The notes under the pieces were generated by a model that made no database searches, was not told the origin of the DNA, and was given only the letters and a program-made list of their open reading frames with translations. DNA of 64,000 bases, taken from assembly GCF_054482525.1 (NCBI RefSeq), contig NZ_CM137006.1; one strand, given 5' to 3'. Positions 465 to 14,743 of the stretch are shown in pieces. Within the stretch, counting starts at the first letter, position 1. Each line of letters begins with the position of its first letter. The position numbers and the translations under genes are program-made.

Positions 465-1597
465 TTATCAATAACGTCAAACTGGTGCTGGAAAATGAAG
501 TGGTGCACGGTTCACTGGAAGTACAGGATGGCGAAATTCGGGCCTTTGCCGAAAGCCAGAGCCGCCAGCCGGAAGCGATGGACGGCGAAGGTGGCTGGCT
601 ACTGCCCGGACTGATTGAGCTGCATACCGACAACCTCGATAAATTCTTCACCCCGCGCCCGAAAGTCGACTGGCCCGCCCATTCGGCGATGAGCAGCCAC
701 GACGCGCTGATGGTGGCAAGCGGCATCACCACCGTACTGGACGCCGTGGCGATTGGTGATGTGCGCGACGGCGGCGATCGGCTGGAGAATCTGGAGAAGA
801 TGATCAACGCCATCGAAGAGACGCAGAAACGCGGCGTCAACCGCGCCGAGCACCGCCTGCACCTGCGCTGCGAACTGCCGCACCACACCACGTTGCCGCT
901 GTTTGAAAAACTGGTGCAGCGCGAACCGGTGACGCTGGTATCGCTGATGGACCACTCGCCAGGCCAGCGCCAGTTCGCCAATCGCGAGAAGTATCGCGAA
1001 TATTATCAGGGCAAATATTCCCTCACCGATGCGCAGATGCAGCAGTACGAAGAAGAGCAATTGGCGCTCGCCGCACGCTGGTCGCAGCCAAATCGCGAAA
1101 CCATCGCCGCAATGTGCCGCGCGCGACACATTGCCCTCGCCAGCCACGATGACGCCACGCACGCCCACGTTGCCGAATCTCACCAGCTTGGCAGCGTGAT
1201 CGCCGAATTTCCCACCACGTTCGAAGCGGCAGAAGCCTCGCGCAAGCATGGCATGAACGTGCTGATGGGCGCGCCGAATATCGTGCGCGGCGGTTCGCAC
1301 TCCGGCAACGTGGCGGCCAGTGAACTGGCGCAGCTTGGCCTGCTGGATATCCTCTCTTCCGACTACTACCCCGCCAGCCTGCTCGATGCGGCATTTCGCG
1401 TCGCCGATGACGAGAGCAACCGCTTTACGCTGCCGCAGGCGGTGAAGCTGGTGACTAAAAATCCGGCGCAGGCGCTTAATCTTCAGGATCGCGGAGTGAT
1501 TGGCGAGGGCAAACGCGCCGACCTGGTGCTGGCGCATCGCAAGGGCAACCACATTCATATCGACCACGTCTGGCGTCAGGGTAAAAGGGTGTTCTGA
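461..1597 (+). CDS. phnM: PhnM, amidohydrolase-family C-P lyase pathway enzyme
   Basis: 378-aa ORF, length and operon position match PhnM; translationally coupled to phnL and phnN. Confidence 0.9.
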
Positions 1598-2154
1598 TGA
1601 CGGGAAAACTGATTTGGTTAATGGGGGCCTCTGGCTCCGGAAAAGACAGTCTGTTGACGGAACTTCGCCAGCGGGAACAAACTCAGCTACTGGTAGCGCA
1701 TCGCTACATCACGCGCGCCGCCAGCGCCGGAAGTGAAAACCATATCGCCCTGAGCGAGCAGGAGTTTTTTACCCGCGCGGGGCAGAACCTTCTGGCCTTA
1801 AGCTGGCACGCTAACGGTCTGTATTATGGCGTCGGCGTCGAGATTGACCTCTGGCTGCACGCCGGATTCGACGTGCTGGTCAACGGCTCACGCGCGCATT
1901 TGCCGCAGGCGCGGGCGCGCTATCAATCGGCGCTGCTGCCCATTTGCTTACAGGTTTCGCCGGAGATCCTGCGCCAGCGCCTGGAAAACCGTGGTCGTGA
2001 AAACGCCAGTGAAATTAACGCCCGGCTGGCGCGCGCCGCCCGCTATACTCCTCAGGATTGCCATACGCTCAATAATGACGGCAGCCTGCGCCAGTCGGTC
2101 GACACGCTGCTGACGCTGATTCATCAGAAGGAGAAACACCATGCCTGCTTGTGA
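1597..2154 (+). CDS. phnN: PhnN, ribose 1,5-bisphosphate phosphokinase
   Basis: 185-aa ORF with P-loop GASGSGKDS; operon position. Confidence 0.9.
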
Positions 2155-2575
2155 GCTTCGCCCGGCCACGCAGTACGATACCGACGCAGTGTACGCGCTG
2201 ATTTGTGAGCTAAAACAGGCGGAGTTTGACCACCACGCGTTTCGCGTGGGCTTTAACGCCAACCTGCGCGACCCGAACATGCGCTACCATCTGGCGCTGC
2301 TGGATGGCGAAGTTGTCGGCATGATCGGCCTGCATTTGCAGTTTCATCTGCATCATGTCAACTGGATCGGCGAAATTCAGGAACTGGTGGTGATGCCGCA
2401 GGCGCGCGGTCTGAATGTCGGCAGTAAATTACTGGCATGGGCAGAAGAAGAAGCCCGCCAGGCCGGGGCCGAAATGACCGAGCTTTCCACCAACGTGAAG
2501 CGCCACGACGCGCACCGTTTCTATCTGCGCGAAGGCTACGAGCAGAGCCACTTCCGCTTCACCAAGGCGCTGTAA
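2141..2575 (+). CDS. phnO: PhnO, GNAT-family aminoalkylphosphonate N-acetyltransferase
   Basis: 144-aa ORF, overlaps phnN end; operon position. Confidence 0.88.
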
Positions 2576-2576
2576 C

Positions 2577-3335
2577 ATGAGCCTGACCCTCACACTTACT
2601 GGCACTGGCGGCGCACAGGGCGTTCCGGCATGGGGCTGCGAGTGCGTGGCCTGCGCCAGAGCGCGGCGCTCACCGCAGTATCGCCGCCAGCCATGCAGCG
2701 GCGTCGTGAAGTTTAACGACGCGATCACCCTGATCGACGCCGGGCTGCACGATCTCGCCGATCGCTGGTCGCCCGGATCGTTCCAGCAGTTTTTGCTGAC
2801 GCACTACCATATGGATCACGTGCAGGGGCTGTTTCCGCTGCGCTGGGGTGTGGGCGATTCGATCCCGATCTACGGCCCGCCGGATGAACAGGGCTGCGAC
2901 GATCTGTTTAAACATCCGGGCCTGCTTGATTTCAGCCACACGATGGAACCGTTTGTGGTGTTTGATTTACAGGGGTTACAGGTCACGCCCCTGCCGCTCA
3001 ACCACTCAAAACTGACCTTCGGTTATCTGCTGGAAACGGCACACAGCCGGGTGGCGTGGCTGTCTGACACCGCTGGCTTGCCGGAAAAAACGCTGAAATT
3101 TTTACGCAATAATCAGCCGCAGGTAATGGTGATTGATTGCAGCCACCCGCCGCGCGAGGATGCACCGCGTAATCACTGTGATTTAAATACCGTGCTTGCG
3201 CTGAATCAGGTTATCCGCTCGCCACGGGTGATTCTGACCCATATCAGCCACCAGTTTGATGCGTGGCTGATGGAAAACGCACTGCCGTCGGGGTTTGAGG
3301 CGGGGTTTGATGGGATGGAGATTGGGGTGGCGTGA
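2577..3335 (+). CDS. phnP: PhnP, metallo-beta-lactamase-fold phosphodiesterase
   Basis: 252-aa ORF with HxHxDH-type motif (THYHMDH); last gene of phn operon. Confidence 0.9.
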
Positions 3336-3350
3336 TGGGAGGGAATGTGC

Positions 3351-3477
3351 GCGCTGGCCCCCTCACCCTAACCCTCTCCCCAGAGGGGCGAGGGGACCGA
3401 TTGTGCTCGATATTGAATATTGCGCTGGTTTTCTCCCTCGCCCCATTGGGGAGAGGGCCGGGGTGAGGGGCGATGCC
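3351..3477. repeat. Pair of GC-rich boxC-like imperfect palindromic repeats in inverted orientation
   Basis: CCCCTCACCCTAACCCTCTCCCCAGAGGGGCGAGGGGA and its near reverse complement TCCCTCGCCCCATTGGGGAGAGGGCCGGGGTGAGGGG, separated by about 35 bp, in the phnP-yjdP intergenic region. Confidence 0.5.
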
Positions 3478-3493
3478 TGCTCCATACCCAACA

Positions 3494-3823
3494 TCAACGC
3501 CCATACTCATCTTCCATTCTCCGCTCTTCATCTTCTAGCTGCCGACGCTCCTGATCCAGCTGGCGCTGGCGATCGTCCAGCTGCCTGCGGCGATCTTCAA
3601 ACTGGCGGCGGCGATCGTCATATTGTCTGCGCCGATCGTCGTTCACTTCACGCTGCCAGCCGTCGTCGCGCGAATCTTCATAGTCTCGCCCACGGTCAGG
3701 GTTATAAGCGTCGTTAATCGCCTGCTGAATATTGCCAATGGTGTCGTCGATAATATCGGCCTGGGCCGGAACGGTGGACAGCGTGAGCAGGGTGAATAAA
3801 AGAAATAGCGGAAAGCGTTTCAT
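3494..3823 (-). CDS. yjdP: YjdP, small secreted protein with charged RRRQ/DD repeats
   Basis: 109-aa ORF with N-terminal signal peptide (MKRFPLFLLFTLLTLSTVPAQA) and repeated DRRRQ-type motifs. Confidence 0.8.
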   Translation of the reverse strand: MKRFPLFLLFTLLTLSTVPAQADIIDDTIGNIQQAINDAYNPDRGRDYEDSRDDGWQREVNDDRRRQYDDRRRQFEDRRRQLDDRQRQLDQERRQLEDEERRMEDEYGR

Positions 3824-3891
3824 TAGCCAACCTCAAAAAGAAACTCTATCCACATTAGTCATTACTCATCCATGCAAGTAGTGGATGAATC

Positions 3892-4092
3892 TCAATTTCT
3901 CCGCTGCTCTATTGCCGTAATCGCCTCCACGCGTTGTTGATGACGACCGCCTTCGTACTGCGCGCCCAGCCACGCATCCACAATCATTTTTGCCAGTTCG
4001 AGGCCAACCACTCGTGAACCAAAAGCCAGTGCAACTTCACTGGCGTAATGCGGATAATCAGTACGCTCTGACGACCTGGTTTCTTTATCAAT
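3892..4092 (-). pseudogene. rpiB: rpiB remnant (ribose-5-phosphate isomerase B), 3' portion only, with internal deletion
   Basis: Translation contains SSERTDYPHYAS...FGSRVVGLELAKMIVDAWLGAQYEGGRHQQRVEAITAIEQRRN, matching the RpiB C-terminus as recalled; the catalytic-Cys GTG-loop segment and the N-terminus are absent; upstream part of the ORF is not RpiB-like. Confidence 0.6.
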
Positions 4093-4241
4093 CCCCTCAC
4101 TCATTGACCATGAATAAAAGGCTGGCACAGCAACGCAGAATCCTGCGGTGCCAGCGACATGACCGCCCATTGCTCCGGTACGTTTTTTAATAAAAAACAC
4201 CGGTTGCATTGATTAATTGTGCTCAGGGTAATGACTCCAAC

Positions 4242-4745
4242 TTATTGATAGTGTTTTATGTTCAGATAATGCCCGATGACTTTGTCATGCAGCTCCACCG
4301 ATTTTGAGAACGACAGCGACTTCCGTCCCAGCCGTGCCAGGTGCTGCCTCAGATTCAGGTTATGCCGCTCAATTCGCTGCGTATATCGCTTGCTGATTAC
4401 GTGCAGCTTTCCCTTCAGGCGGGATTCATACAGCGGCCAGCCATCCGTCATCCATATCACCACGTCAAAGGGTGACAGCAGGCTCATAAGACGCCCCAGC
4501 GTCGCCATAGTGCGTTCACCGAATACGTGCGCAACAACCGTCTTCCGGAGACTGTCATACGCGTAAAACAGCCAGCGCTGGCGCGATTTAGCCCCGACAT
4601 AGCCCCACTGTTCGTCCATTTCCGCGCAGACGATGACGTCACTGCCCGGCTGTATGCGCGAGGTTACCGACTGCGGCCTGAGTTTTTTAAGTGACGTAAA
4701 ATCGTGTTGAGGCCAACGCCCATAATGCGGGCAGTTGCCCGGCAT
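4242..4745 (-). CDS. insB: IS1 InsB (transposase catalytic part, normally expressed as InsAB' by -1 frameshift)
   Basis: 167-aa ORF overlapping insA 3' end in the -1 frame; canonical IS1 organisation. Confidence 0.9.
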
Positions 4746-4939
4746 CCAACGCCATTCATGGCCATATCAATGATTTTCTGGTGCGTACCGGGTTGAGAAG
4801 CGGTGTAAGTGAACTGCAGTTGCCATGTTTTACGGCAGTGAGAGCAGAGATAGCGCTGATGTCCGGCGGTGCTTTTGCCGTTACGCACCACCCCGTCAGT
4901 AGCTGAACAGGAGGGACAGCTGATAGAAACAGAAGCCAC
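4664..4939 (-). CDS. insA: IS1 InsA
   Basis: 91-aa [46 protein letters not shown], zinc-finger plus HTH, canonical IS1 InsA. Confidence 0.92.
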
Positions 4940-5226
4940 TGGAGCACCTCAAAAACACCATCATACACTAAATCAGTAAGTTGGCAGCATCACCTGTGCT
5001 CAGTATTTGCCGAAGTACAATATATATAATAAATATATAAAACACCTCATATTATTTACAGAGATAATAAATTCGCGTACTTTTCCCTCTTCAGCACAAA
5101 TGCCTAATAAAGTGGCGCGTTCAGCTCACACTTCTACTTATTAAAGTCGCAATTTCCCAATTATGATAACGCCAGCTTTAAATGACGTATTTTGCATGGA
5201 TTACATATTTACGACATAAATGATAA

Positions 5227-7224
5227 ATGGAGATTTATATGAATAACTCTCGGTTATTCCGTTTGAGCAGGATTGTTATTGCGTTAACTGCCGCCAGCGG
5301 CATGATGGTAAATACCGCTTACGCAACAGATGAAGCGAAAGCCGCCACTCAATATACCCAACAGATTAATCAGAATTACGCCAAATCATTACCTTTTAGC
5401 GATCGTCAAGATTTTGACGATGCCCAGCGTGGATTTATCGCTCCGCTGCTGGATGAAGGTATTCTGCGTGATGCTAACGGCAAAGTTTACTACCGCGCAG
5501 ACGATTACAAATTTGATATTAATGCCGCTGCGCCGGAAACCGTAAACCCCAGCCTGTGGCGTCAGTCGCAAATCAACGGTATTTCTGGCCTGTTCAAAGT
5601 CACCGATAAAATGTATCAGGTGCGCGGCCAGGATATCTCTAACATTACGTTCGTTGAGGGCGAGAAAGGCATTATTGTTATCGACCCGCTGGTGACGCCG
5701 CCTGCCGCAAAAGCCGCACTTGATCTTTACTTCCAGCATCGTCCGCAAAAACCGATTGTTGCTGTGATTTACACCCACAGCCACGCCGACCATTATGGCG
5801 GTGTGAAAGGCATTATCTCTGAAGCGGATGTTAAATCCGGCAAAGTGCAGGTGATCGCTCCGGCAGGCTTTATGGACGAAGCCATCAGCGAAAACGTGCT
5901 GGCGGGTAACATCATGAGCCGCCGTGCGCTCTACTCTTACGGTCTGTTACTGCCGCACAACGCGCAAGGCAACGTGGGCAACGGCCTGGGCGTGACGCTG
6001 GCAACCGGCGACCCGAGCATTATTGCACCGACTAAAACTATCGTCAGAACTGGCGAGAAGATGATTATCGACGGCCTGGAGTTTGACTTCCTGATGACTC
6101 CGGGTAGCGAAGCGCCAGCCGAAATGCACTTCTATATTCCGGCCCTGAAAGCCCTGTGTACCGCCGAGAACGCCACGCATACCCTGCACAACTTCTACAC
6201 TCTGCGCGGCGCGAAAACCCGCGATACCAGCAAGTGGACCGAGTACCTGAACGAAACGCTGGATATGTGGGGTAACGACGCGGAAGTACTGTTTATGCCG
6301 CACACCTGGCCGGTCTGGGGCAATAAGCATATCAATGATTATATTGGTAAATATCGCGATACTATCAAGTACATTCACGACCAGACCCTGCACCTGGCGA
6401 ACCAGGGCTACACCATGAATGAAATCGGCGACATGATTAAGCTGCCGCCTGCGCTTGCCAATAACTGGGCCAGCCGCGGCTATTACGGTTCTGTCAGCCA
6501 CAACGCCCGCGCGGTGTATAACTTCTATCTTGGCTATTACGACGGTAACCCGGCTAACCTGCATCCATATGGTCAGGTGGAGATGGGTAAACGTTACGTG
6601 CAAGCTCTGGGCGGTTCTGCCCGCGTCATCAACCTGGCGAAAGAAGCGAACAAGCAAGGTGATTATCGCTGGTCGGCAGAACTGCTGAAACAGGTGATTG
6701 CCGCCAACCCTGGTGACCAGGTCGCGAAGAATCTGCAAGCGAATAACTTTGAACAGCTGGGCTATCAGGCCGAGTCCGCCACCTGGCGCGGTTTCTACCT
6801 GACCGGCGCGAAAGAGCTGCGCGAAGGGGTGCATAAATTCAGCCACGGCACCACCGGTTCCCCGGACACCATTCGCGGAATGTCGGTCGAAATGCTGTTC
6901 GACTTTATGTCCGTTCGCCTCGATAGTGCGAAAGCCGCGGGTAAAAATATCAGCCTGAACTTCAATATGAGCAACGGCGATAACCTCAACCTGACGCTGA
7001 ACGATAGCGTGCTTAACTACCGTAAAACGCTGCAACCTGAAGCCAACGCCTCTTTCTACATCAGCCGTGAAGATCTTCACGCCGTGCTGACCGGACAAGC
7101 CAAAATGGCGGATCTGGTAAAAGCGAAGAAAGCCAAAATTATTGGCAATGGCGCGAAACTGGAAGAAATTATTGCCTGTCTGGATAATTTCGATTTGTGG
7201 GTGAATATCGTAACCCCAAATTAA
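5227..7224 (+). CDS. yjcS: YjcS, MBL-fold alkyl/aryl-sulfatase family protein (BDS1/SdsA1-like), secreted
   Basis: 665-aa ORF with signal peptide and metallo-beta-lactamase motif [10 protein letters not shown]; start may be a few codons downstream. Confidence 0.85.
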
Positions 7225-7239
7225 TGCCACTCACTTTTG

Positions 7240-7270
7240 GGGGCCCTTAAGCCCCCAAAAGCATTTATTT
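7240..7270 (+). terminator. Rho-independent terminator downstream of yjcS
   Basis: Hairpin TTTTGGGGGC-CCTTAA-GCCCCCAAAA followed by T-rich tract. Confidence 0.6.
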
Positions 7271-7432
7271 AAAAAATATATACAGCAAATTAATACATAA
7301 AATATATAAGTTATGAATGCGGTGGCTGAATAAAGCTATTTTTATTCATCGAGAAAATAGCCATACTGACGCCTTCAATGGATATTGATATTCACTACAG
7401 ATATTGTTCGCAGCAGACAGGATGTATTTAAT

Positions 7433-7708
7433 ATGCCAACAGTTCTCTCTCGCATGGCGATGCAACTCAAAAAAACAGCCTGGATAATTCCCGTCTTCAT
7501 GGTTTCGGGATGCTCATTATCTCCGGCAATCCCGGTGATCGGCGCTTATTATCCCAGCTGGTTTTTCTGCGCCATTGCCAGCCTTATTTTGACGCTCATC
7601 ACGAGGCGAATTATTCAGCGGGCAAATATCAATCTGGCATTTGTCGGAATTATTTATACCGCCCTTTTTGCTCTCTACGCCATGCTGCTCTGGCTGGCAT
7701 TTTTCTAA
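7433..7708 (+). CDS. ytcA: YtcA, small lipoprotein/membrane protein preceding mdtNOP
   Basis: 91-aa protein MPTVLSRMAMQLKK... with lipobox-like VSGC and two hydrophobic segments; position upstream of mdtN. Confidence 0.75.
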   Translation: MPTVLSRMAMQLKKTAWIIPVFMVSGCSLSPAIPVIGAYYPSWFFCAIASLILTLITRRIIQRANINLAFVGIIYTALFALYAMLLWLAFF

Positions 7709-7726
7709 TCTATTTGAGACGCGCTC

Positions 7727-8758
7727 ATGGAAAGTACGCCGAAAAAAGCTCCTCGCAGTAAATTCCCTGCTCTGTTAGTGGTTGCGTTGGCGCTGGTTGC
7801 CCTTGTTTTCGTTATCTGGCGCGTAGACAGTGCGCCATCAACTAATGACGCCTACGCGTCAGCAGATACCATTGATGTGGTGCCGGAAGTCAGCGGTCGC
7901 ATTGTAGAACTGGCGGTCACCGACAACCAGGCGGTGAAACAGGGTGATTTGCTATTCCGCATCGACCCACGCCCATACGAAGCCAATCTGGCGAAAGCCG
8001 AAGCCTCCCTCGCGGCGCTGGATAAGCAAATTATGCTCACCCAACGTAGCGTTGACGCGCAACAGTTTGGTGCCGACTCGGTTAATGCCACGGTAGAAAA
8101 AGCCCGTGCCGCCGCGAAACAGGCCACAGATACATTACGCCGCACCGAGCCATTACTGAAAGAAGGTTTTGTCTCAGCGGAAGACGTTGACCGTGCAAGA
8201 ACTGCGCAGCGCGCCGCAGAAGCCGATCTTAATGCCGTATTGTTGCAGGCGCAGTCAGCCGCCAGTGCCGTCAGCGGCGTCGATGCGCTGGTCGCCCAAC
8301 GTGCGGCGGTCGAAGCGGATATTGCCCTGACCAAACTGCATCTGGAAATGGCGACCGTTCGCGCGCCGTTTGATGGCCGGGTCATTTCCCTCAAAACCTC
8401 CGTCGGGCAATTTGCTTCTGCCATGCGCCCTATTTTTACCCTAATCGACACTCGTCACTGGTACGTGATCGCCAACTTCCGCGAAACCGATCTGAAAAAT
8501 ATTCGCTCAGGTACACCCGCAACGATTCGCCTGATGAGCGACAGCGGCAAAACCTTCGAGGGTAAAGTGGATTCGATTGGCTACGGCGTGCTACCGGATG
8601 ACGGCGGTCTGGTGCTGGGCGGCCTGCCGAAAGTGTCTCGTTCTATTAACTGGGTCCGCGTTGCCCAGCGTTTTCCGGTCAAAATCATGGTTGATAAACC
8701 TGACCCGGAAATGTTCCGCATCGGCGCTTCGGCAGTCGCTAATCTTGAGCCGCAATAA
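7727..8758 (+). CDS. mdtN: MdtN, membrane-fusion (HlyD-family) efflux component
   Basis: 343-aa ORF, N-terminal TM anchor, coiled-coil rich; synteny. Confidence 0.85.
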   Translation: MESTPKKAPRSKFPALLVVALALVALVFVIWRVDSAPSTNDAYASADTIDVVPEVSGRIVELAVTDNQAVKQGDLLFRIDPRPYEANLAKAEASLAALDKQIMLTQRSVDAQQFGADSVNATVEKARAAAKQATDTLRRTEPLLKEGFVSAEDVDRARTAQRAAEADLNAVLLQAQSAASAVSGVDALVAQRAAVEADIALTKLHLEMATVRAPFDGRVISLKTSVGQFASAMRPIFTLIDTRHWYVIANFRETDLKNIRSGTPATIRLMSDSGKTFEGKVDSIGYGVLPDDGGLVLGGLPKVSRSINWVRVAQRFPVKIMVDKPDPEMFRIGASAVANLEPQ

Positions 8759-10809
8759 TGAGCGCGCTCAACTCCCTGCCATTACCGGTGGTCAGGCTGC
8801 TGGCGTTCTTTCATGAAGAGTTAAGCGAGCGGCGACCAGGCCGCGTGCCGCAGACTATGCAACTCTGGGTAGGCTGCCTGCTGGTGATTCTGATCTCGAT
8901 GACTTTTGAGATCCCTTTTGTGGCGTTATCGCTGGCAGTGCTGTTTTACGGTATTCAGTCGAACGCGTTTTACACCAAATTTGTCGCGATCTTGTTTGTG
9001 GTCGCCACGATGCTGGAGATCGGCAGCCTGTTTTTGATCTACAAATGGTCATATGGCGAACCGTTGATCCGATTGATCATCGCCGGACCGATCCTGATGG
9101 GCTGCATGTTTTTGATGCGCACCCATCGGCTGGGGCTGGTCTTTTTCGCCGTCGCCATTGTCGCTATTTACGGGCAAACCTTCCCCGCCATGCTCGACTA
9201 TCCGGAAGTGGTCGTGCGCTTAACCCTGTGGTGTATCGTTGTCGGCCTCTACCCGACGTTATTGATGACGTTAATCGGCGTGCTGTGGTTTCCCAGCCGC
9301 GCTATCACGCAGATGCATCAGGCGCTTAATGATCGGCTTGATGATGCCATTAGTCACCTGACGGACAGCCTCGCACCGCTACCCGAAACGCGGATTGAAA
9401 GAGAGGCGCTGGCGCTGCAAAAACTCAATGTCTTTTGCCTCGCGGACGATGCCAACTGGCGAACTCAGAGCGCATGGTGGCAAAGCTGCGTGGCAACGGT
9501 AACCTACATTTACTCGACGCTGAATCGCTACGATCCCACCTCTTTTGCTGATTCTCAGGCAATTATTGAATTTCGGCAAAAATTAGCCTCAGAAATCAAC
9601 AAACTGCAGCATGCCATTGCCGAAGGTCAGTGCTGGCAAAGCGACTGGCGGATCACTGAAAGTGAAGCGATGGCGGCACGGGAATGTAACCTGGAGAATA
9701 TCTGCCAGACATTGTTGCAACTGGGTCAGATGGACCCGAATACGCCGCCAACGCCCGCCGCCAAACCGCCATCAATGGTCGCCGATGCTTTTACCAATCC
9801 AGACTATATGCGCTACGCGGTAAAAACGCTGCTCGCCTGTTTGATCTGTTACACCTTCTACAGCGGCGTGGACTGGGAAGGCATTCACACCTGTATGCTG
9901 ACCTGCGTGATCGTCGCTAACCCGAATGTTGGTTCGTCGTATCAGAAAATGGCGCTGCGTTTTGGCGGTGCCTTCTGCGGTGCAATTCTGGCGCTGTTAT
10001 TCACGTTACTGGTCATGCCCTGGCTGGACAATATTGTCGAATTGCTATTTGTGCTGGCACCGATTTTTCTGTTGGGCGCATGGATTGCCACCAGCTCTGA
10101 ACGCTCTTCTTATATCGGCACACAGATGGTGGTCACCTTCGCGCTCGCCACGCTCGAAAACGTTTTTGGCCCGGTGTACGACCTGGTGGAAATTCGCGAT
10201 CGCGCCCTGGGTATCATCATTGGTACCGTGGTGTCCGCGGTGATTTACACCTTTGTCTGGCCTGAAAGTGAAGCGCGCACACTGCCGCAAAAACTGGCTG
10301 GCGCGCTGGGTATGTTGAGTAAAGTAATGCGGATCCCACGCCAGCAGGAAGTCACGGCTCTGCGCACTTATCTGCAAATTCGTATAGGTCTGCATGCGGC
10401 GTTTAATGCCTGTGAAGAGATGTGCCAACGCGTGGCGCTGGAGCGTCAACTGGACAGCGAAGAACGCGCTTTACTGATTGAACGTTCGCAAACGGTTATT
10501 CGTCAGGGCCGCGATATTCTTCACGCCTGGGATGCAACCTGGAACTCGGCGCAGGCGCTGGATAACGCACTACAGCCGGACAGAGCAGGTCAGTTTGCCG
10601 ACGCACTGGAGAAATACGCTGCCGGTCTGGCAACCGCACTCAGCCGTTCTCCTCAAATAACGCTTGAAGAAACACCCGCCTCGCAGGCCATCCTGCCGAC
10701 CTTATTAAAACAGGAACAACACGTCTGCCAGCTTTTCGCCCGCTTGCCAGACTGGACAGCCCCGGCATTAACGCCCGCCAAGGAACAGGTACAAGGAGCC
10801 ACGCAATGA
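8758..10809 (+). CDS. mdtO: MdtO, inner-membrane efflux transporter (aromatic acid exporter family)
   Basis: 683-aa polytopic membrane ORF, start overlaps mdtN stop. Confidence 0.85.
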   Translation: MSALNSLPLPVVRLLAFFHEELSERRPGRVPQTMQLWVGCLLVILISMTFEIPFVALSLAVLFYGIQSNAFYTKFVAILFVVATMLEIGSLFLIYKWSYGEPLIRLIIAGPILMGCMFLMRTHRLGLVFFAVAIVAIYGQTFPAMLDYPEVVVRLTLWCIVVGLYPTLLMTLIGVLWFPSRAITQMHQALNDRLDDAISHLTDSLAPLPETRIEREALALQKLNVFCLADDANWRTQSAWWQSCVATVTYIYSTLNRYDPTSFADSQAIIEFRQKLASEINKLQHAIAEGQCWQSDWRITESEAMAARECNLENICQTLLQLGQMDPNTPPTPAAKPPSMVADAFTNPDYMRYAVKTLLACLICYTFYSGVDWEGIHTCMLTCVIVANPNVGSSYQKMALRFGGAFCGAILALLFTLLVMPWLDNIVELLFVLAPIFLLGAWIATSSERSSYIGTQMVVTFALATLENVFGPVYDLVEIRDRALGIIIGTVVSAVIYTFVWPESEARTLPQKLAGALGMLSKVMRIPRQQEVTALRTYLQIRIGLHAAFNACEEMCQRVALERQLDSEERALLIERSQTVIRQGRDILHAWDATWNSAQALDNALQPDRAGQFADALEKYAAGLATALSRSPQITLEETPASQAILPTLLKQEQHVCQLFARLPDWTAPALTPAKEQVQGATQ

Positions 10810-12305
10810 TCAATCGTCAACTTTCACGTCTGCTGTTGTGCAGCATTCTCGGCAGCACGACGCTGATTTCCGGCTGTGCCCTGGTACGTAAGGATTCTGC
10901 ACCTCATCAACAGCTCAAACCGGAACAAATCAAACTGGCCGATGATATTCATCTTGCCAGCTCCGGCTGGCCGCAGGCGCAGTGGTGGAAACAACTCAAT
11001 GACCCGCAGCTGGATGCGCTGATCCAACGGACGCTAAGTGGTTCACACACCCTCGCCGAAGCGAAACTGCGGGAAGAAAAAGCGCAGTCGCAGGCCGATT
11101 TGTTAGATGCCGGTTCACAGTTGCAGGTGGCCGCGTTAGGGATGCTCAACCGACAACGTGTCTCGGCGAACGGCTTTTTAAGCCCTTATGCGATGGATGC
11201 GCCAGCACTGGGTATGGACGGGCCGTACTATACGGAAGCCACAGTCGGTTTGTTTGCCGGACTGGATCTTGATTTGTGGGGTGTGCATCGCTCAGCGGTT
11301 GCCGCCGCCATTGGCGCGCATAATGCCGCGCTGGCAGAAACCGCAGCAGTAGAGCTATCGCTGACCACGGGCGTAGCGCAGCTTTATTACAGTATGCAGG
11401 CCAGCTATCAGATGCTCGATCTGTTAGAACAAACACGCGATGTGATTGATTACGCGGTGAAAGCGCACCAGAGTAAAGTGGCGCACGGTCTGGAAGCGCA
11501 CCAGAGTAAAGTGGCGCACGGTCTGGAAGCGCAAGTGCCTTTCCACGGCGCGCGGGCACAGATTCTGGCGGTCGATAAACAAATTGCTGCCGTTAAAGGG
11601 CAAATCACCGAAACGCGAGAATCTCTGCGTGCATTGATTGGCGCGGGAGCCAGCGATATGCCGGAGATCAAACCGGTGGCATTACCGCAAGTCCAGACCG
11701 GCATTCCGGCGACACTCTCTTATGAGTTGCTCGCCAGACGCCCGGATCTGCAAGCCATGCGCTGGTATGTTCAGGCGTCATTAGATCAGGTGGATTCCGC
11801 GCGGGCGCTGTTCTATCCGAGCTTTGATATCAAAGCGTTTTTCGGCCTGGATTCTATCCACCTGGATACCTTATTCAAAAAAACCAGTCGCCAGTTCAAC
11901 TTTATCCCAGGTCTGAAATTGCCGCTGTTTGACGGTGGACGGTTGAATGCCAATCTCGAAGGCACTCGCGCCGCCAGCAACATGATGATTGAACGTTACA
12001 ACCAGTCAGTGCTGAATGCGGTGCGCGACGTTGCCGTCAACGGCACGCGTCTGCAAACGCTCAACGACGAGCGAGAGATGCAGGCTGAACGCGTGGAAGC
12101 AACGCGCTTCACCCAGCGCGCTGCCGAGGCCGCCTATCAACGCGGCTTAACCAGCCGCTTACAGGCCACCGAAGCCCGGTTGCCAGTGCTTGCCGAGGAG
12201 ATGTCATTACTGATGCTGGACAGCCGCCGGGTGATCCAAAGCATTCAGTTGATGAAATCGCTGGGCGGCGGGTATCAGGCAAGTCCCGTCGTCGAGAAAA
12301 AATAA
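10806..12305 (+). CDS. mdtP: MdtP, outer-membrane efflux factor (TolC/OprM family lipoprotein); 499 aa here, with an 11-aa in-frame tandem duplication
   Basis: Lipoprotein signal with LISGC lipobox; 499-aa ORF versus 488 aa recalled for K-12; contains duplicated HQSKVAHGLEA. Confidence 0.85.
   Translation: MINRQLSRLLLCSILGSTTLISGCALVRKDSAPHQQLKPEQIKLADDIHLASSGWPQAQWWKQLNDPQLDALIQRTLSGSHTLAEAKLREEKAQSQADLLDAGSQLQVAALGMLNRQRVSANGFLSPYAMDAPALGMDGPYYTEATVGLFAGLDLDLWGVHRSAVAAAIGAHNAALAETAAVELSLTTGVAQLYYSMQASYQMLDLLEQTRDVIDYAVKAHQSKVAHGLEAHQSKVAHGLEAQVPFHGARAQILAVDKQIAAVKGQITETRESLRALIGAGASDMPEIKPVALPQVQTGIPATLSYELLARRPDLQAMRWYVQASLDQVDSARALFYPSFDIKAFFGLDSIHLDTLFKKTSRQFNFIPGLKLPLFDGGRLNANLEGTRAASNMMIERYNQSVLNAVRDVAVNGTRLQTLNDEREMQAERVEATRFTQRAAEAAYQRGLTSRLQATEARLPVLAEEMSLLMLDSRRVIQSIQLMKSLGGGYQASPVVEKK
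11463..11528 (+). repeat. Perfect 33-bp direct tandem duplication inside mdtP
   Basis: GCGCACCAGAGTAAAGTGGCGCACGGTCTGGAA occurs twice back to back (11463-11495 and 11496-11528). Confidence 0.9.
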
Positions 12306-12307
12306 AA

Positions 12308-12336
12308 TGTCTGCCGCGTGATGGCTGTCACGCGGT
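12308..12336 (+). terminator. Rho-independent terminator after mdtP
   Basis: Hairpin GCCGCGTGA-TGGCTG-TCACGCGGT followed by ATTTCGTTT. Confidence 0.6.
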
Positions 12337-12435
12337 ATTTCGTTTCGTCACGTCAAAACTGACGACAGCCTGTTTTTCGTCAGAGTTTTGAATAAATAGT
12401 GCCCGTAATATCAGGGAATGACCCCAAATAAAATG

Positions 12436-12452
12436 TGGCATAAAAGATGCAT
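12436..12452 (+). promoter_or_regulatory. Sigma-54 (-24/-12) promoter of fdhF, preceded by FhlA-type upstream activating repeats (about 12340-12400)
   Basis: TGGCATAAAAGATGCA matches the TGGCAC-N5-TTGCA consensus; upstream TCGTCA/TGACGA repeats. Confidence 0.75.
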
Positions 12453-12502
12453 ACTGTAGTCGAGAGCGCGTATGCGTGATTTGATTAACTGGAGCGAGAC
12501 CG

Positions 12503-14650
12503 ATGAAAAAAGTCGTCACGGTTTGCCCCTATTGCGCATCAGGTTGCAAAATCAACCTGGTCGTCGATAACGGCAAAATCGTCCGGGCGGAGGCAGCGCA
12601 GGGGAAAACCAACCAGGGTACCCTGTGTCTGAAGGGTTATTATGGCTGGGATTTCATTAACGATACCCAGATCCTGACCCCGCGCCTGAAAACCCCCATG
12701 ATCCGTCGCCAGCGTGGCGGCAAACTCGAACCTGTTTCCTGGGATGAGGCACTGAATTACGTTGCCGAGCGCCTGAGCGCCATCAAAGAGAAGTACGGTC
12801 CGGATGCCATCCAGACGACCGGCTCCTCGCGTGGTACGGGTAACGAAACCAACTATGTAATGCAAAAATTTGCGCGCGCCGTTATTGGTACCAATAACGT
12901 TGACTGCTGCGCTCGTGTCTGACACGGCCCATCGGTTGCAGGTCTGCACCAATCGGTCGGTAATGGCGCAATGAGCAATGCTATTAACGAAATTGATAAT
13001 ACCGATTTAGTGTTCGTTTTCGGGTACAACCCGGCGGATTCCCACCCAATCGTGGCGAACCACGTAATTAACGCTAAACGTAACGGGGCGAAAATTATCG
13101 TCTGCGATCCGCGCAAAATTGAAACCGCGCGCATTGCTGACATGCACATTGCACTGAAAAACGGCTCGAACATCGCGCTGTTGAATGCGATGGGCCATGT
13201 CATTATTGAAGAAAATCTGTACGACAAAGCATTCGTCGCTTCCCGTACAGAAGGCTTTGAAGAGTATCGTAAAATCGTTGAAGGCTACACGCCGGAGTCG
13301 GTTGAAGATATCACCGGCGTCAGCGCCAATGAGATTCGTCAGGCGGCACGGATGTATGCCCAGGCGAAAAGCGCCGCCATCCTGTGGGGCATGGGTGTAA
13401 CCCAGTTCTACCAGGGCGTGGAAACCGTGCGTTCTCTGACCAGCCTCGCGATGCTGACCGGTAACCTCGGTAAGCCACATGCGGGTGTTAACCCGGTTCG
13501 TGGTCAGAACAACGTACAGGGTGCCTGCGATATGGGCGCGCTGCCGGATACGTATCCGGGATACCAGTACGTGAAAGATCCGGCTAACCGCGAGAAATTC
13601 GCCAAAGCCTGGGGCGTGGAAAGCCTGCCTGCTCATACCGGTTATCGCATCAGCGAGCTGCCGCACCGCGCAGCGCATGGTGAAGTGCGTGCCGCGTACA
13701 TTATGGGCGAAGATCCGCTGCAAACTGACGCGGAGCTGTCGGCAGTACGTAAAGCCTTTGAAGATCTGGAACTGGTTATCGTTCAGGACATCTTTATGAC
13801 CAAAACCGCGTCGGCGGCGGATGTTATTTTACCGTCAACGTCGTGGGGCGAGCATGAAGGCGTGTTTACTGCGGCTGACCGTGGCTTCCAGCGTTTCTTC
13901 AAAGCGGTTGAACCGAAGTGGGATCTGAAAACGGACTGGCAGATTATCAGTGAAATCGCCACTCGTATGGGTTATCCGATGCACTACAACAACACCCAGG
14001 AGATCTGGGATGAGTTGCGTCATCTGTGCCCGGATTTCTACGGTGCGACTTACGAGAAAATGGGCGAACTGGGCTTCATTCAGTGGCCTTGCCGCGATAC
14101 TTCAGATGCCGATCAGGGGACTTCTTATCTGTTTAAAGAGAAGTTTGATACCCCGAACGGTCTGGCGCAGTTCTTCACCTGCGACTGGGTAGCGCCAATC
14201 GACAAACTCACCGACGAGTACCCGATGGTACTGTCAACGGTGCGTGAAGTTGGTCACTACTCTTGCCGTTCGATGACCGGTAACTGTGCGGCACTGGCGG
14301 CGCTGGCTGATGAACCTGGCTACGCACAAATCAATACCGAAGACGCCAAACGTCTGGGTATTGAAGATGAGGCATTGGTTTGGGTGCACTCGCGTAAAGG
14401 CAAAATTATCACCCGTGCGCAGGTCAGCGATCGTCCGAACAAAGGGGCGATTTATATGACCTACCAGTGGTGGATTGGTGCCTGTAACGAGCTGGTTACC
14501 GAAAACTTAAGCCCGATTACGAAAACGCCGGAATACAAATACTGCGCCGTGCGCGTCGAGCCGATCGCCGATCAGCGCGCCGCCGAGCAGTACGTGATTG
14601 ACGAGTACAACAAGTTGAAAACTCGCCTGCGCGAAGCGGCACTGGCGTAA
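12503..14650 (+). CDS. fdhF: Formate dehydrogenase H, selenocysteine-containing (in-frame UGA at 12920-12922 is recoded)
   Basis: Two adjacent same-frame ORFs (12503-12922 and 12971-14650) joined by TGA; N-terminal MKKVVTVCPYCASGCKINL; Mo-bisPGD dehydrogenase; SECIS hairpin immediately 3' of the TGA. Confidence 0.92.
12920..12965 (+). promoter_or_regulatory. SECIS element (selenocysteine insertion sequence) of fdhF
   Basis: UGA followed directly by hairpin CACGGCCCATCGGTTGCAGGTCTGCACCAATCGGTCGG. Confidence 0.85.
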
Positions 14651-14663
14651 TACAGTCCTTTCT

Positions 14664-14691
14664 ACAGCCTCCTTTCGGAGGCTGTTTTTTT
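14664..14691 (+). terminator. Rho-independent terminator after fdhF
   Basis: ACAGCCTCC-TTTC-GGAGGCTGT followed by TTTTTTT. Confidence 0.85.
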
Positions 14692-14743
14692 ATCCATTCG
14701 AACTCTTTATACTGGTTACTCCCTACCCAATCGTATTATCAAA

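What the first reader, a model, noticed from the sequence alone, without database searches (positions are those of the whole stretch)
11463..11528. Perfect 33-bp tandem duplication inside mdtP adding 11 residues (HQSKVAHGLEA x2)
GCGCACCAGAGTAAAGTGGCGCACGGTCTGGAA is present twice head-to-tail with no mismatch, keeping the reading frame and lengthening the outer-membrane efflux factor to 499 aa versus 488 aa recalled for K-12. A perfect duplication is evolutionarily young, or an assembly artefact. In TolC-family proteins such an insert would fall in the helical periplasmic domain and could change channel geometry or interaction with MdtN.
Basis: seen in the sequence. Interest (0 to 1): 0.4.

Follow-up and report, generated by a model that had tools for sequence, protein, structure and literature searches.

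The report
In-frame 33-bp duplication in mdtP
A real, inherited 33-base tandem duplication adds 11 amino acids to the periplasmic tip of the E. coli outer-membrane efflux channel MdtP in one phylogroup D lineage; it is an ordinary replication-slippage allele of a dispensable pump, notable only because it doubles the motif that docks the adaptor protein.

Summary
Window 11463-11495 and 11496-11528 are identical 33-bp copies in frame inside mdtP (10806-12305), giving 499 aa instead of 488.

It is not an assembly artefact. The junction is in two independent closed genomes (SCU-102, human, USA, ST973; 19KM1776, dog, Switzerland). The exact protein is on 262 contigs, and a derived 499-aa variant is on 42 more. 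It is rare: 2 of 5,426 complete E. coli genomes. No 3-copy form is on record.

The ancestral sequence has a 7-bp direct repeat (AAGCGCA) exactly 33 bp apart, which is the classic slippage substrate. Carriers differ by 7-8 SNPs per 49 kb, so the allele has been inherited through lineage diversification.

The unit covers the turn of the first helix-turn-helix (H3/H4) at the periplasmic tip. It duplicates the near-invariant R/K-x-x-x-G-L motif that contacts the adaptor in related pumps. In 123 diverse homologues this segment never varies in length. AlphaFold confidence there drops from 98 to about 66.

The likely effect is weaker MdtN docking, tolerated because MdtNOP is a minor pump. This is inferred, not shown. 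Interest is low.

The parts
10806..12305 (+). mdtP coding sequence, 499 aa, outer-membrane factor of the MdtNOP pump (lipoprotein, lipobox Cys24)
   Evidence: ORF; NF007390 equivalog 1020.6 bits; annotated mdtP in identical relatives; fold matches CusC, CmeC, SilC, OprN, VceC, OprM and TolC
11463..11495 (+). copy 1 of the 33-bp unit (codons 220-230, AHQSKVAHGLE; includes K224, G228, L229)
11496..11528 (+). copy 2 of the 33-bp unit (codons 231-241; includes K235, G239, L240, which MAFFT aligns with the family R-x-x-x-G-L motif)
11461..11467 (+). AAGCGCA microhomology, first occurrence (start of copy 1)
   Evidence: TRF array begins at 11461; in the reconstructed ancestor AAGCGCA occurs twice, exactly 33 bp apart
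11494..11500 (+). AAGCGCA at the novel copy1/copy2 junction
   Evidence: the junction 44-mer 11474-11517 is found in only 2 of 5,426 genomes
11527..11533 (+). AAGCGCA microhomology, last occurrence (immediately after copy 2)
7727..8758 (+). mdtN, periplasmic adaptor and presumed docking partner; carries an RLS-type tip motif R139-L143-S150
   Evidence: annotation of a relative identical over 12 kb; motif found
8758..10809 (+). mdtO, inner-membrane FUSC-family permease, intact 683 aa

Best explanation
This is a genuine, heritable, lineage-specific allele of mdtP, created once by replication slippage. The ancestral gene has the heptamer AAGCGCA twice, exactly 33 bp apart. Misalignment of the nascent strand from the second heptamer back onto the first re-copied the intervening 33 bp and gave a perfect in-frame head-to-tail duplication. 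The allele then spread with a phylogroup D clone (ST973 for SCU-102) found in humans and dogs on two continents.

At protein level the 11 extra residues duplicate the turn of the first helix-turn-helix (H3/H4) at the periplasmic tip of the channel. This includes the family's near-invariant R/K-x-x-x-G-L element. In related pumps that element makes the tip-to-tip contact with the adaptor's RLS motif.

Inferred consequence: three of the six tips of the MdtP trimer become longer or irregular, which most likely weakens MdtN docking and makes the allele hypomorphic (about 55%). Alternatively the change is tolerated with little effect (about 35%). It persists because MdtNOP is a minor, dispensable pump.

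Shown here: the allele's reality, distribution, origin signature and position in the fold. Inferred: the functional effect.
For: - Reality: the junction 44-mer is in 2 independent closed genomes. The exact 499-aa protein is on 262 contigs and in 281 collection blocks, including a metagenome scaffold and 6 blocks whose longest carrying contig exceeds 1 Mb. RefSeq accession WP_000610562.1.
- Inheritance: a derived 499-aa variant with one further substitution is on 42 contigs. Carriers differ from the window by 7 SNPs each and from one another by 8, over 49 kb, all private to one genome.
- Ancestor: the exact 1-copy protein (WP_000610566.1) is on at least 1000 contigs. PCN033 has one copy and differs by only 4 SNPs in 37 kb.
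- Slippage signature: AAGCGCA lies at both unit boundaries, 33 bp apart in the ancestor.
- Position: the 488-aa AF2 model has H3 160-226, turn H227-A231, H4 232-267, pLDDT 98. The 499-aa model has a break at G228, an extra helix 229-237 and a loop 238-243, with pLDDT 82/66/86. Alignments to VceC and CusC place the 11-residue gap beside the xGL motif.
- Constraint: 123 of 123 homologues have exactly 73 residues between anchors Y194 and L277. Column composition is R in 112, G in 117 and L/I in 115 of 124.
[quoted passage not shown] MdsC G220A at the repeat-1 tip glycine abolishes pump function (PMC4069162).
- Partner: MdtN has an RLS motif. MdtN is identical in 1-copy and 2-copy strains, so there is no compensating change.
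Against: - No functional data exist for either allele.
- The AF2 model is a monomer, and its alignment has no information for the inserted residues, so the lower pLDDT is partly automatic.
- Eleven residues are almost exactly three helical turns, so the hairpin might simply lengthen with the second copy of the motif at the new tip.
- A tandem duplication can revert precisely by the same slippage. Its persistence on about 300 contigs therefore argues against a strong fitness cost.
- A single origin is inferred from only three carrier genomes plus exact-protein counts. No SNP in 37 kb unites the carriers against PCN033, so PCN033 could be a revertant.
Confidence: 0.8

Rival explanations
1. Assembly or sequencing artefact: the second copy is not present in the organism.
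For: A perfect short tandem repeat is a pattern that mis-assembly can produce, and only 2 of 5,426 complete genomes show it.
Against: The identical junction is in two closed genomes from different laboratories, hosts and countries. The exact protein is on 262 contigs plus 42 for a derived variant, from NCBI, ENA and a metagenome. A 66-bp array is well within a single short read. RefSeq already holds two WP accessions for it.
Confidence: 0.01
2. Structurally tolerated, functionally silent polymorphism: the 11 residues (about three helical turns) extend or loop out of the H3/H4 tip, the second copy of the motif still docks MdtN, and the pump works normally.
For: The allele has persisted through lineage diversification although precise reversion is mechanistically easy. 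AF2 keeps the rest of the fold at pLDDT above 95 and places the second HGLEA copy at the turn. The frame is preserved, and mdtN and mdtO are intact.
Against: None of 123 homologues shows any length change in this segment. A single Gly-to-Ala change at the equivalent tip in MdsC abolishes function. H3 gains 11 residues while H4 gains none in the model, and confidence drops to about 66.
Confidence: 0.35
3. Adaptive remodelling: the longer tip was selected because it changes gating (for example a leakier or tighter periplasmic aperture) or partner choice of MdtP in this clone.
For: It hits exactly the adaptor-contact and aperture region. The allele is on about 300 contigs from several hosts and countries.
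Against: There is no recurrence on other backgrounds in 5,426 genomes. MdtN shows no accompanying change. The frequency is explained by clonal hitch-hiking. MdtNOP contributes only minor resistance, to acriflavine and puromycin (PMC8277102). No phenotype data exist.
Confidence: 0.08
4. Contingency (copy-number-variable) repeat that switches MdtP state by gaining and losing 33-bp units.
For: Tandem repeats can expand and contract. A 1-copy strain (PCN033) sits in the same star-like clade and could be a revertant.
Against: Only two states are seen. The 3-copy protein is absent from about 15 billion sequences. All five carrier loci have exactly two units. The unit is a multiple of three, so it cannot switch expression on and off. 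Two copies are stable across carriers that have diverged by 7-8 SNPs per 49 kb.
Confidence: 0.03

Closest known systems
MdtP (YjcP/SdsP) of E. coli K-12, outer-membrane factor of the MdtNOP (SdsRQP) pump; NodT/OprM-type lipoprotein subfamily
   Same: Same gene at the same locus (ytcA-mdtN-mdtO-mdtP-fdhF). It scores as an equivalog and is otherwise identical to the common 488-aa allele WP_000610566.1. It has the same fold as CusC, OprM and VceC.
   Different: There are 11 extra residues at the H3/H4 tip, so the repeat-1 R/K-x-x-x-G-L motif occurs twice. The segment between conserved anchors is 84 residues instead of the family-invariant 73.
Val-Gly-Leu/Thr (V/TGV) aperture-tip motifs of TolC, OprM, CusC and MdsC, which dock the adaptor RLS motif tip-to-tip
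   Same: MdtP H227-G228-L229 forms the turn between H3 and H4 in the model and aligns with VceC ANGLE. The Gly is near-invariant in the family. MdtN has the complementary RLS motif.
   Different: In the studied proteins the motif was changed by point mutation, and MdsC G220A is null. Here the motif is intact but duplicated, with an 11-residue spacing. No natural or engineered counterpart turned up in the two literature searches that bear on this.
Short-homology (slipped-strand) tandem duplications and deletions in bacteria, such as the events between short direct repeats classically described in lacI (from my own knowledge)
   Same: Perfect head-to-tail copies bounded by a 7-bp direct repeat that pre-exists in the ancestor at a spacing equal to the unit length.
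   Different: Nothing mechanistically unusual. No significant hairpin assists it: the ancestral region folds no better than shuffles, z = -0.25.

Membership tests
MdtP / NodT-type outer-membrane efflux factor | Scores above the curated cut-off of the MdtP equivalog model | tested here: met
   NF007390 scores 1020.6 bits against a cut-off of 597. The match is split into 2 stretches by the insert. TIGR01845 scores 261 against 210.
MdtP / NodT-type outer-membrane efflux factor | N-terminal lipoprotein signal with lipobox cysteine | tested here: met
   The sequence reads ...LISGC24. The C24 column is at least 90% conserved in 124 sequences.
MdtP / NodT-type outer-membrane efflux factor | Two-repeat beta-strand plus long-helix fold of TolC-like channels | tested here: met
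   AF2 mean pLDDT 92, pTM 0.87. Foldseek probability is 1.00 to CusC, CmeC, SilC, OprN, VceC, OprM and TolC. Pfam PF02321 OEP.
MdtP / NodT-type outer-membrane efflux factor | Encoded with its adaptor and inner-membrane partner (mdtN, mdtO) | tested here: met
   ytcA-mdtN-mdtO-mdtP are contiguous and intact.
MdtP / NodT-type outer-membrane efflux factor | Canonical length of the H3-turn-H4 hairpin (one tip motif per repeat) | tested here: not met
   84 residues between anchors Y194 and L277, against 73 in 123 of 123 homologues. This is the variant feature. It does not remove the protein from the family.
Slipped-strand (microhomology-mediated) tandem duplication | Perfect head-to-tail copies with a short direct repeat at both boundaries of the ancestral unit | tested here: met
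   AAGCGCA lies at 11461, 11494 and 11527. It is 33 bp apart in the reconstructed ancestor and in the single-copy relatives.
Slipped-strand (microhomology-mediated) tandem duplication | Single-copy ancestral allele present in closest relatives | tested here: met
   PCN033 has one copy and differs by 4 SNPs in 37 kb. The exact 1-copy protein is on at least 1000 contigs.
Phase-variable / contingency tandem repeat | Multiple copy-number states among close relatives, usually switching the frame | tested here: not met
   Only 1 or 2 copies are seen. The 3-copy protein is not on record. The unit is 33 bp, a multiple of 3. All five carrier loci have exactly 2 units.
Assembly artefact | Confined to one assembly, not reproduced independently | tested here: not met
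   2 closed genomes and 262 + 42 contigs from several sources.
Functional MdtNOP pump component | Docks MdtN and supports efflux | not testable with these tools
   This needs MIC, cross-linking or structural experiments with the 488-aa and 499-aa alleles.

The most novel reading that the evidence does not exclude
The duplicated tip motif is not a passenger but a selected change to the outer-membrane factor/adaptor interface. It would be a natural 'extended cog' on three of the six tips that alters aperture gating or lets MdtP pair differently with adaptors in this clone. That would make it a natural experiment on how much length change the tip-to-tip interface of tripartite pumps can accommodate.
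Probability: 0.08. Interest if true: 0.45.

Novelty: new variant of a known kind. Interest (0 to 1): 0.2.

Why it matters
Mostly it does not. This is a clonal in-frame polymorphism in a minor, poorly expressed efflux system, and the sequence is already in RefSeq (WP_000610562.1), annotated simply as MdtP.

Two modest uses remain:
- The junction is a clean lineage marker, present in 2 of 5,426 complete genomes.
- It is a naturally occurring insertion at the tip motif where outer-membrane factors dock their adaptors. That site shows no length variation in 123 diverse homologues, and in a relative a single Gly-to-Ala change there kills function. Comparing the 488-aa and 499-aa alleles would be a cheap test of how tolerant the tip-to-tip interface is to length changes.

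Tried and rejected
- A 201-base query across the repeat could not separate the alleles. BLAST covered the query with two overlapping pieces in single-copy genomes, so the record span was 168 bases at 100% coverage. I replaced it with a 44-mer junction query that single-copy genomes cannot seed.
- Assembly artefact: rejected.
- Copy-number-variable repeat: the 3-copy protein is not on record.
- Hairpin-assisted slippage: the ancestral 86-nt region folds no better than shuffles, z = -0.25. Only the 7-bp direct repeat is invoked.
- SNPs uniting carriers against PCN033: the two candidate sites (7228, 10777) proved private to PCN033 when polarised with outgroups elppa4 and 1190. Carrier monophyly therefore rests on the duplication itself.
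- Literature search for 'mdtP' plus 'duplication' returned only unrelated, mostly plant, papers. No description of this allele was found.
- AF2 coordinates are not exposed to the scripting sandbox. I could compare only secondary structure and pLDDT, not measure tip protrusion.
- One paper search failed on a term shorter than three characters.

Full report
**1. The observation**

The window reads GCGCACCAGAGTAAAGTGGCGCACGGTCTGGAA at 11463-11495 and the same 33 bases again at 11496-11528. Tandem Repeats Finder gives period 33, 2.2 copies, 100% matches and no indels over 11461-11533. The extra 0.2 copy is the heptamer AAGCGCA, which starts copy 1 and copy 2 and recurs just after copy 2.

The repeat begins at the first base of codon 220 of the ORF 10806-12305 (+), 499 aa, so the frame is kept. 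The protein reads ...VK-AHQSKVAHGLE-AHQSKVAHGLE-AQVPF... A perfect 33-bp tandem repeat is expected about 1e-15 times by chance in 64 kb.

The ORF is MdtP. NCBIfam equivalog NF007390 scores 1020.6 bits against a cut-off of 597, the profile is 488 long, and the match is split in two by the insert. The gene lies in the order ytcA-mdtN-mdtO-mdtP-fdhF.

**2. Real or artefact, and how common**

A 201-base query matched 5,413 of 5,426 complete E. coli genomes. Every sampled hit spanned only 168 bases of the record, which means one copy.

I then used a junction-specific 44-mer (11474-11517), which single-copy genomes cannot seed in megablast. It hit exactly two genomes:
- SCU-102, from a rectal swab of a healthy student in California. 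It is phylogroup D, ST973 (PMC11251922).
- 19KM1776, from a dog rectal sample in Switzerland.

In the 15-billion-protein collection the counts are as follows:

| Protein | Length | Contigs |
|---|---|---|
| Exact 2-copy allele (RefSeq WP_000610562.1) | 499 aa | 262, in 281 blocks |
| 19KM1776 variant, one further substitution | 499 aa | 42 |
| Otherwise identical 1-copy protein (WP_000610566.1) | 488 aa | at least 1000 (counter capped) |
| Hypothetical 3-copy protein | 510 aa | 0 |

The 262 contigs include an ENA metagenome scaffold, and in 6 of the 281 blocks the longest carrying contig exceeds 1 Mb. All five carrier loci fetched have exactly two units.

The duplication is therefore a real, inherited, two-state allele. 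It is not an assembly artefact and not a copy-number-variable repeat.

**3. Age and ancestry**

Over about 49 kb the window differs from SCU-102 by 7 SNPs and from 19KM1776 by 7. The two differ from each other by 8. Every SNP is private to one genome.

The window also has a private IS1 insertion, so it comes from a third carrier strain.

The single-copy porcine strain PCN033 is phylogroup D, ST597 (PMC9828833). It differs from the window by only 4 SNPs in 37 kb. The two sites that appeared to separate it from the carriers are PCN033-private when polarised with outgroups.

The local phylogeny is therefore a star, and the duplication is the only derived character the carriers share. PCN033 either branched off just before the event or is a precise revertant; these cannot be told apart here.

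At typical E. coli clock rates (from my own knowledge, roughly 1e-7 to 1e-6 per site per year), 1.5e-4 pairwise divergence puts the carriers' common ancestor very roughly tens to hundreds of years back. At that divergence only about 0.005-0.01 substitutions are expected in 66 bp. Perfect identity of the copies therefore needs no special explanation.

**4. How it arose**

Removing one copy gives ...GTGAAAGCGCACCAG...GGTCTGGAAGCGCAAGTG..., in which AAGCGCA occurs twice, exactly 33 bp apart. This is the classical substrate for slipped-strand misalignment. The nascent strand, having copied the second heptamer, re-pairs with the first and copies the interval again.

The ancestral region has no significant secondary structure (z = -0.25 against shuffles). 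No hairpin assistance is invoked.

**5. Where it falls in the protein**

Alignments to the solved structures VceC (1yc9) and CusC (3pik) put the 11-residue gap immediately beside MdtP AHGLE, which aligns with VceC ANGLE.

I collected 123 full-length homologues (50%-identity cluster representatives, 25-54% identical to MdtP). In that alignment:
- The unit contains two near-invariant columns: R in 112 of 124 (K224 in MdtP) and G in 117 of 124 (G228). They are followed by L/I in 115 of 124.
- This is the repeat-1 R-x-x-x-G-L motif, mirrored in repeat 2.
- The distance between conserved anchors Y194 and L277 is 73 residues in all 123 homologues and 84 only in this allele.

The AlphaFold2 models compare as follows:

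| Model | H3 | Turn | H4 | pLDDT at the site |
|---|---|---|---|---|
| 488 aa | 160-226 | H227-G228-L229-E230-A231 | 232-267 | 98 |
| 499 aa | 160-227, break at G228, extra helix 229-237 | loop 238-243 | 244-278 | 82, 66, 86 for residue blocks 221-230, 231-240 and 241-250 |

The rest of the 499-aa fold is unchanged (mean pLDDT 92, pTM 0.87). The 499-aa model matches CusC, CmeC, SilC, OprN, VceC, OprM and TolC with Foldseek probability 1.00.

The insert therefore sits exactly at the periplasmic tip of the first helix-turn-helix and duplicates the tip motif.

**6. What that tip does in relatives**

[quoted passage not shown] The authors note that interface pairs matched those predicted to co-evolve in MdtNOP (PMC5404916).

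In Salmonella MdsC, an OprM-like factor, changing the repeat-1 tip glycine (G220A) or the repeat-2 glycine (G433A) abolishes pump function (PMC4069162).

MdtN carries the complementary adaptor RLS motif, R139-TEP-L143-LKEGFV-S150. MdtN is the same protein accession in 1-copy PCN033 and in both 2-copy genomes, so nothing has compensated for the change.

MdtNOP itself is credited only with acriflavine and puromycin resistance (PMC8277102).

**7. Most likely mechanism and consequence**

Shown:
- It is a slippage-derived, clonally inherited, in-frame duplication.
- It doubles the adaptor-contact motif at three of the six tips of the trimer.
- The site never varies in length in the family.

Inferred: the longer or irregular tip most likely weakens MdtN docking, giving a hypomorph (about 55%). 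It may instead be accommodated with little effect (about 35%), since 11 residues are about three helical turns and a complete motif remains at the new turn. Selected change is the least likely (about 8%).

Persistence on about 300 contigs, despite easy precise reversion, argues against a strong cost. That fits a minor, dispensable pump.

Caveats: the AF2 model is a monomer, the insert has no alignment depth, and I could not access coordinates.

**8. Comparison with the known, and novelty**

It is MdtP by every membership test except hairpin length. The mutational mechanism is textbook. The allele is already in RefSeq under an ordinary MdtP name. I found no paper describing it, but my searches were limited to open-access text.

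It is a new structural variant of a known protein, not a new kind of system.

**9. Verdict**

Interest is low (0.2). It is a useful lineage marker and a possible natural test of length tolerance at the tip-to-tip interface, but otherwise an ordinary polymorphism.

Noticed in passing
window 4227-4994 (target-site duplication at 4218-4226 and 4995-5003): A 768-bp IS1 copy (ends GGTAATGACTCCAACTTATTG... and ...CAGTAAGTTGGCAGCATCACC), flanked by a 9-bp target duplication TGTGCTCAG. It lies in the intergenic region between the rpiB/lacA-like gene and yjcS. It is absent from SCU-102, 19KM1776 and PCN033, so it is private to this strain.
   Followed up: partly
window 12503-14650 (stop at 12920-12922): the ORF listing splits fdhF into 139-aa and 559-aa ORFs at an in-frame stop. 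Relatives annotate one 715-aa CDS. This is the known selenocysteine codon (Sec140) of formate dehydrogenase H, not a disruption.
   Followed up: partly
L007 (PCN033) 1590-13023, corresponding to the ssb-yjcB junction near window 36677: PCN033 carries an island of about 12 kb with two integrases, an Avs4 anti-phage nuclease and an AbiGi-family gene between ssb and yjcB. The window and both other duplication carriers lack it.
   Followed up: no
window 5700-10700 versus 10800-14700, compared with L009 and L010: The outgroup strains elppa4 and 1190 differ from the window at about 75 sites across yjcS-mdtN-mdtO, but at only about 5 sites across mdtP-fdhF (identical MdtP apart from the duplication). 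This suggests a recombination mosaic boundary near the mdtO/mdtP junction.
   Followed up: no
window 7727-8758 (mdtN), residues 139-150: MdtN has a canonical adaptor hairpin-tip RLS motif (RTEPLLKEGFVS). This fits tip-to-tip docking with MdtP even though MdtO is a FUSC-family rather than an RND transporter.
   Followed up: partly
E. coli genome hit H40, NZ_LR134080.1 (NCTC9082) 4603126-4603250: One genome matches only the first 158 of the 201 query bases, and its gene is annotated 'TolC family protein' rather than mdtP. This suggests a different disruption or divergence downstream of the tip region in that strain.
   Followed up: no
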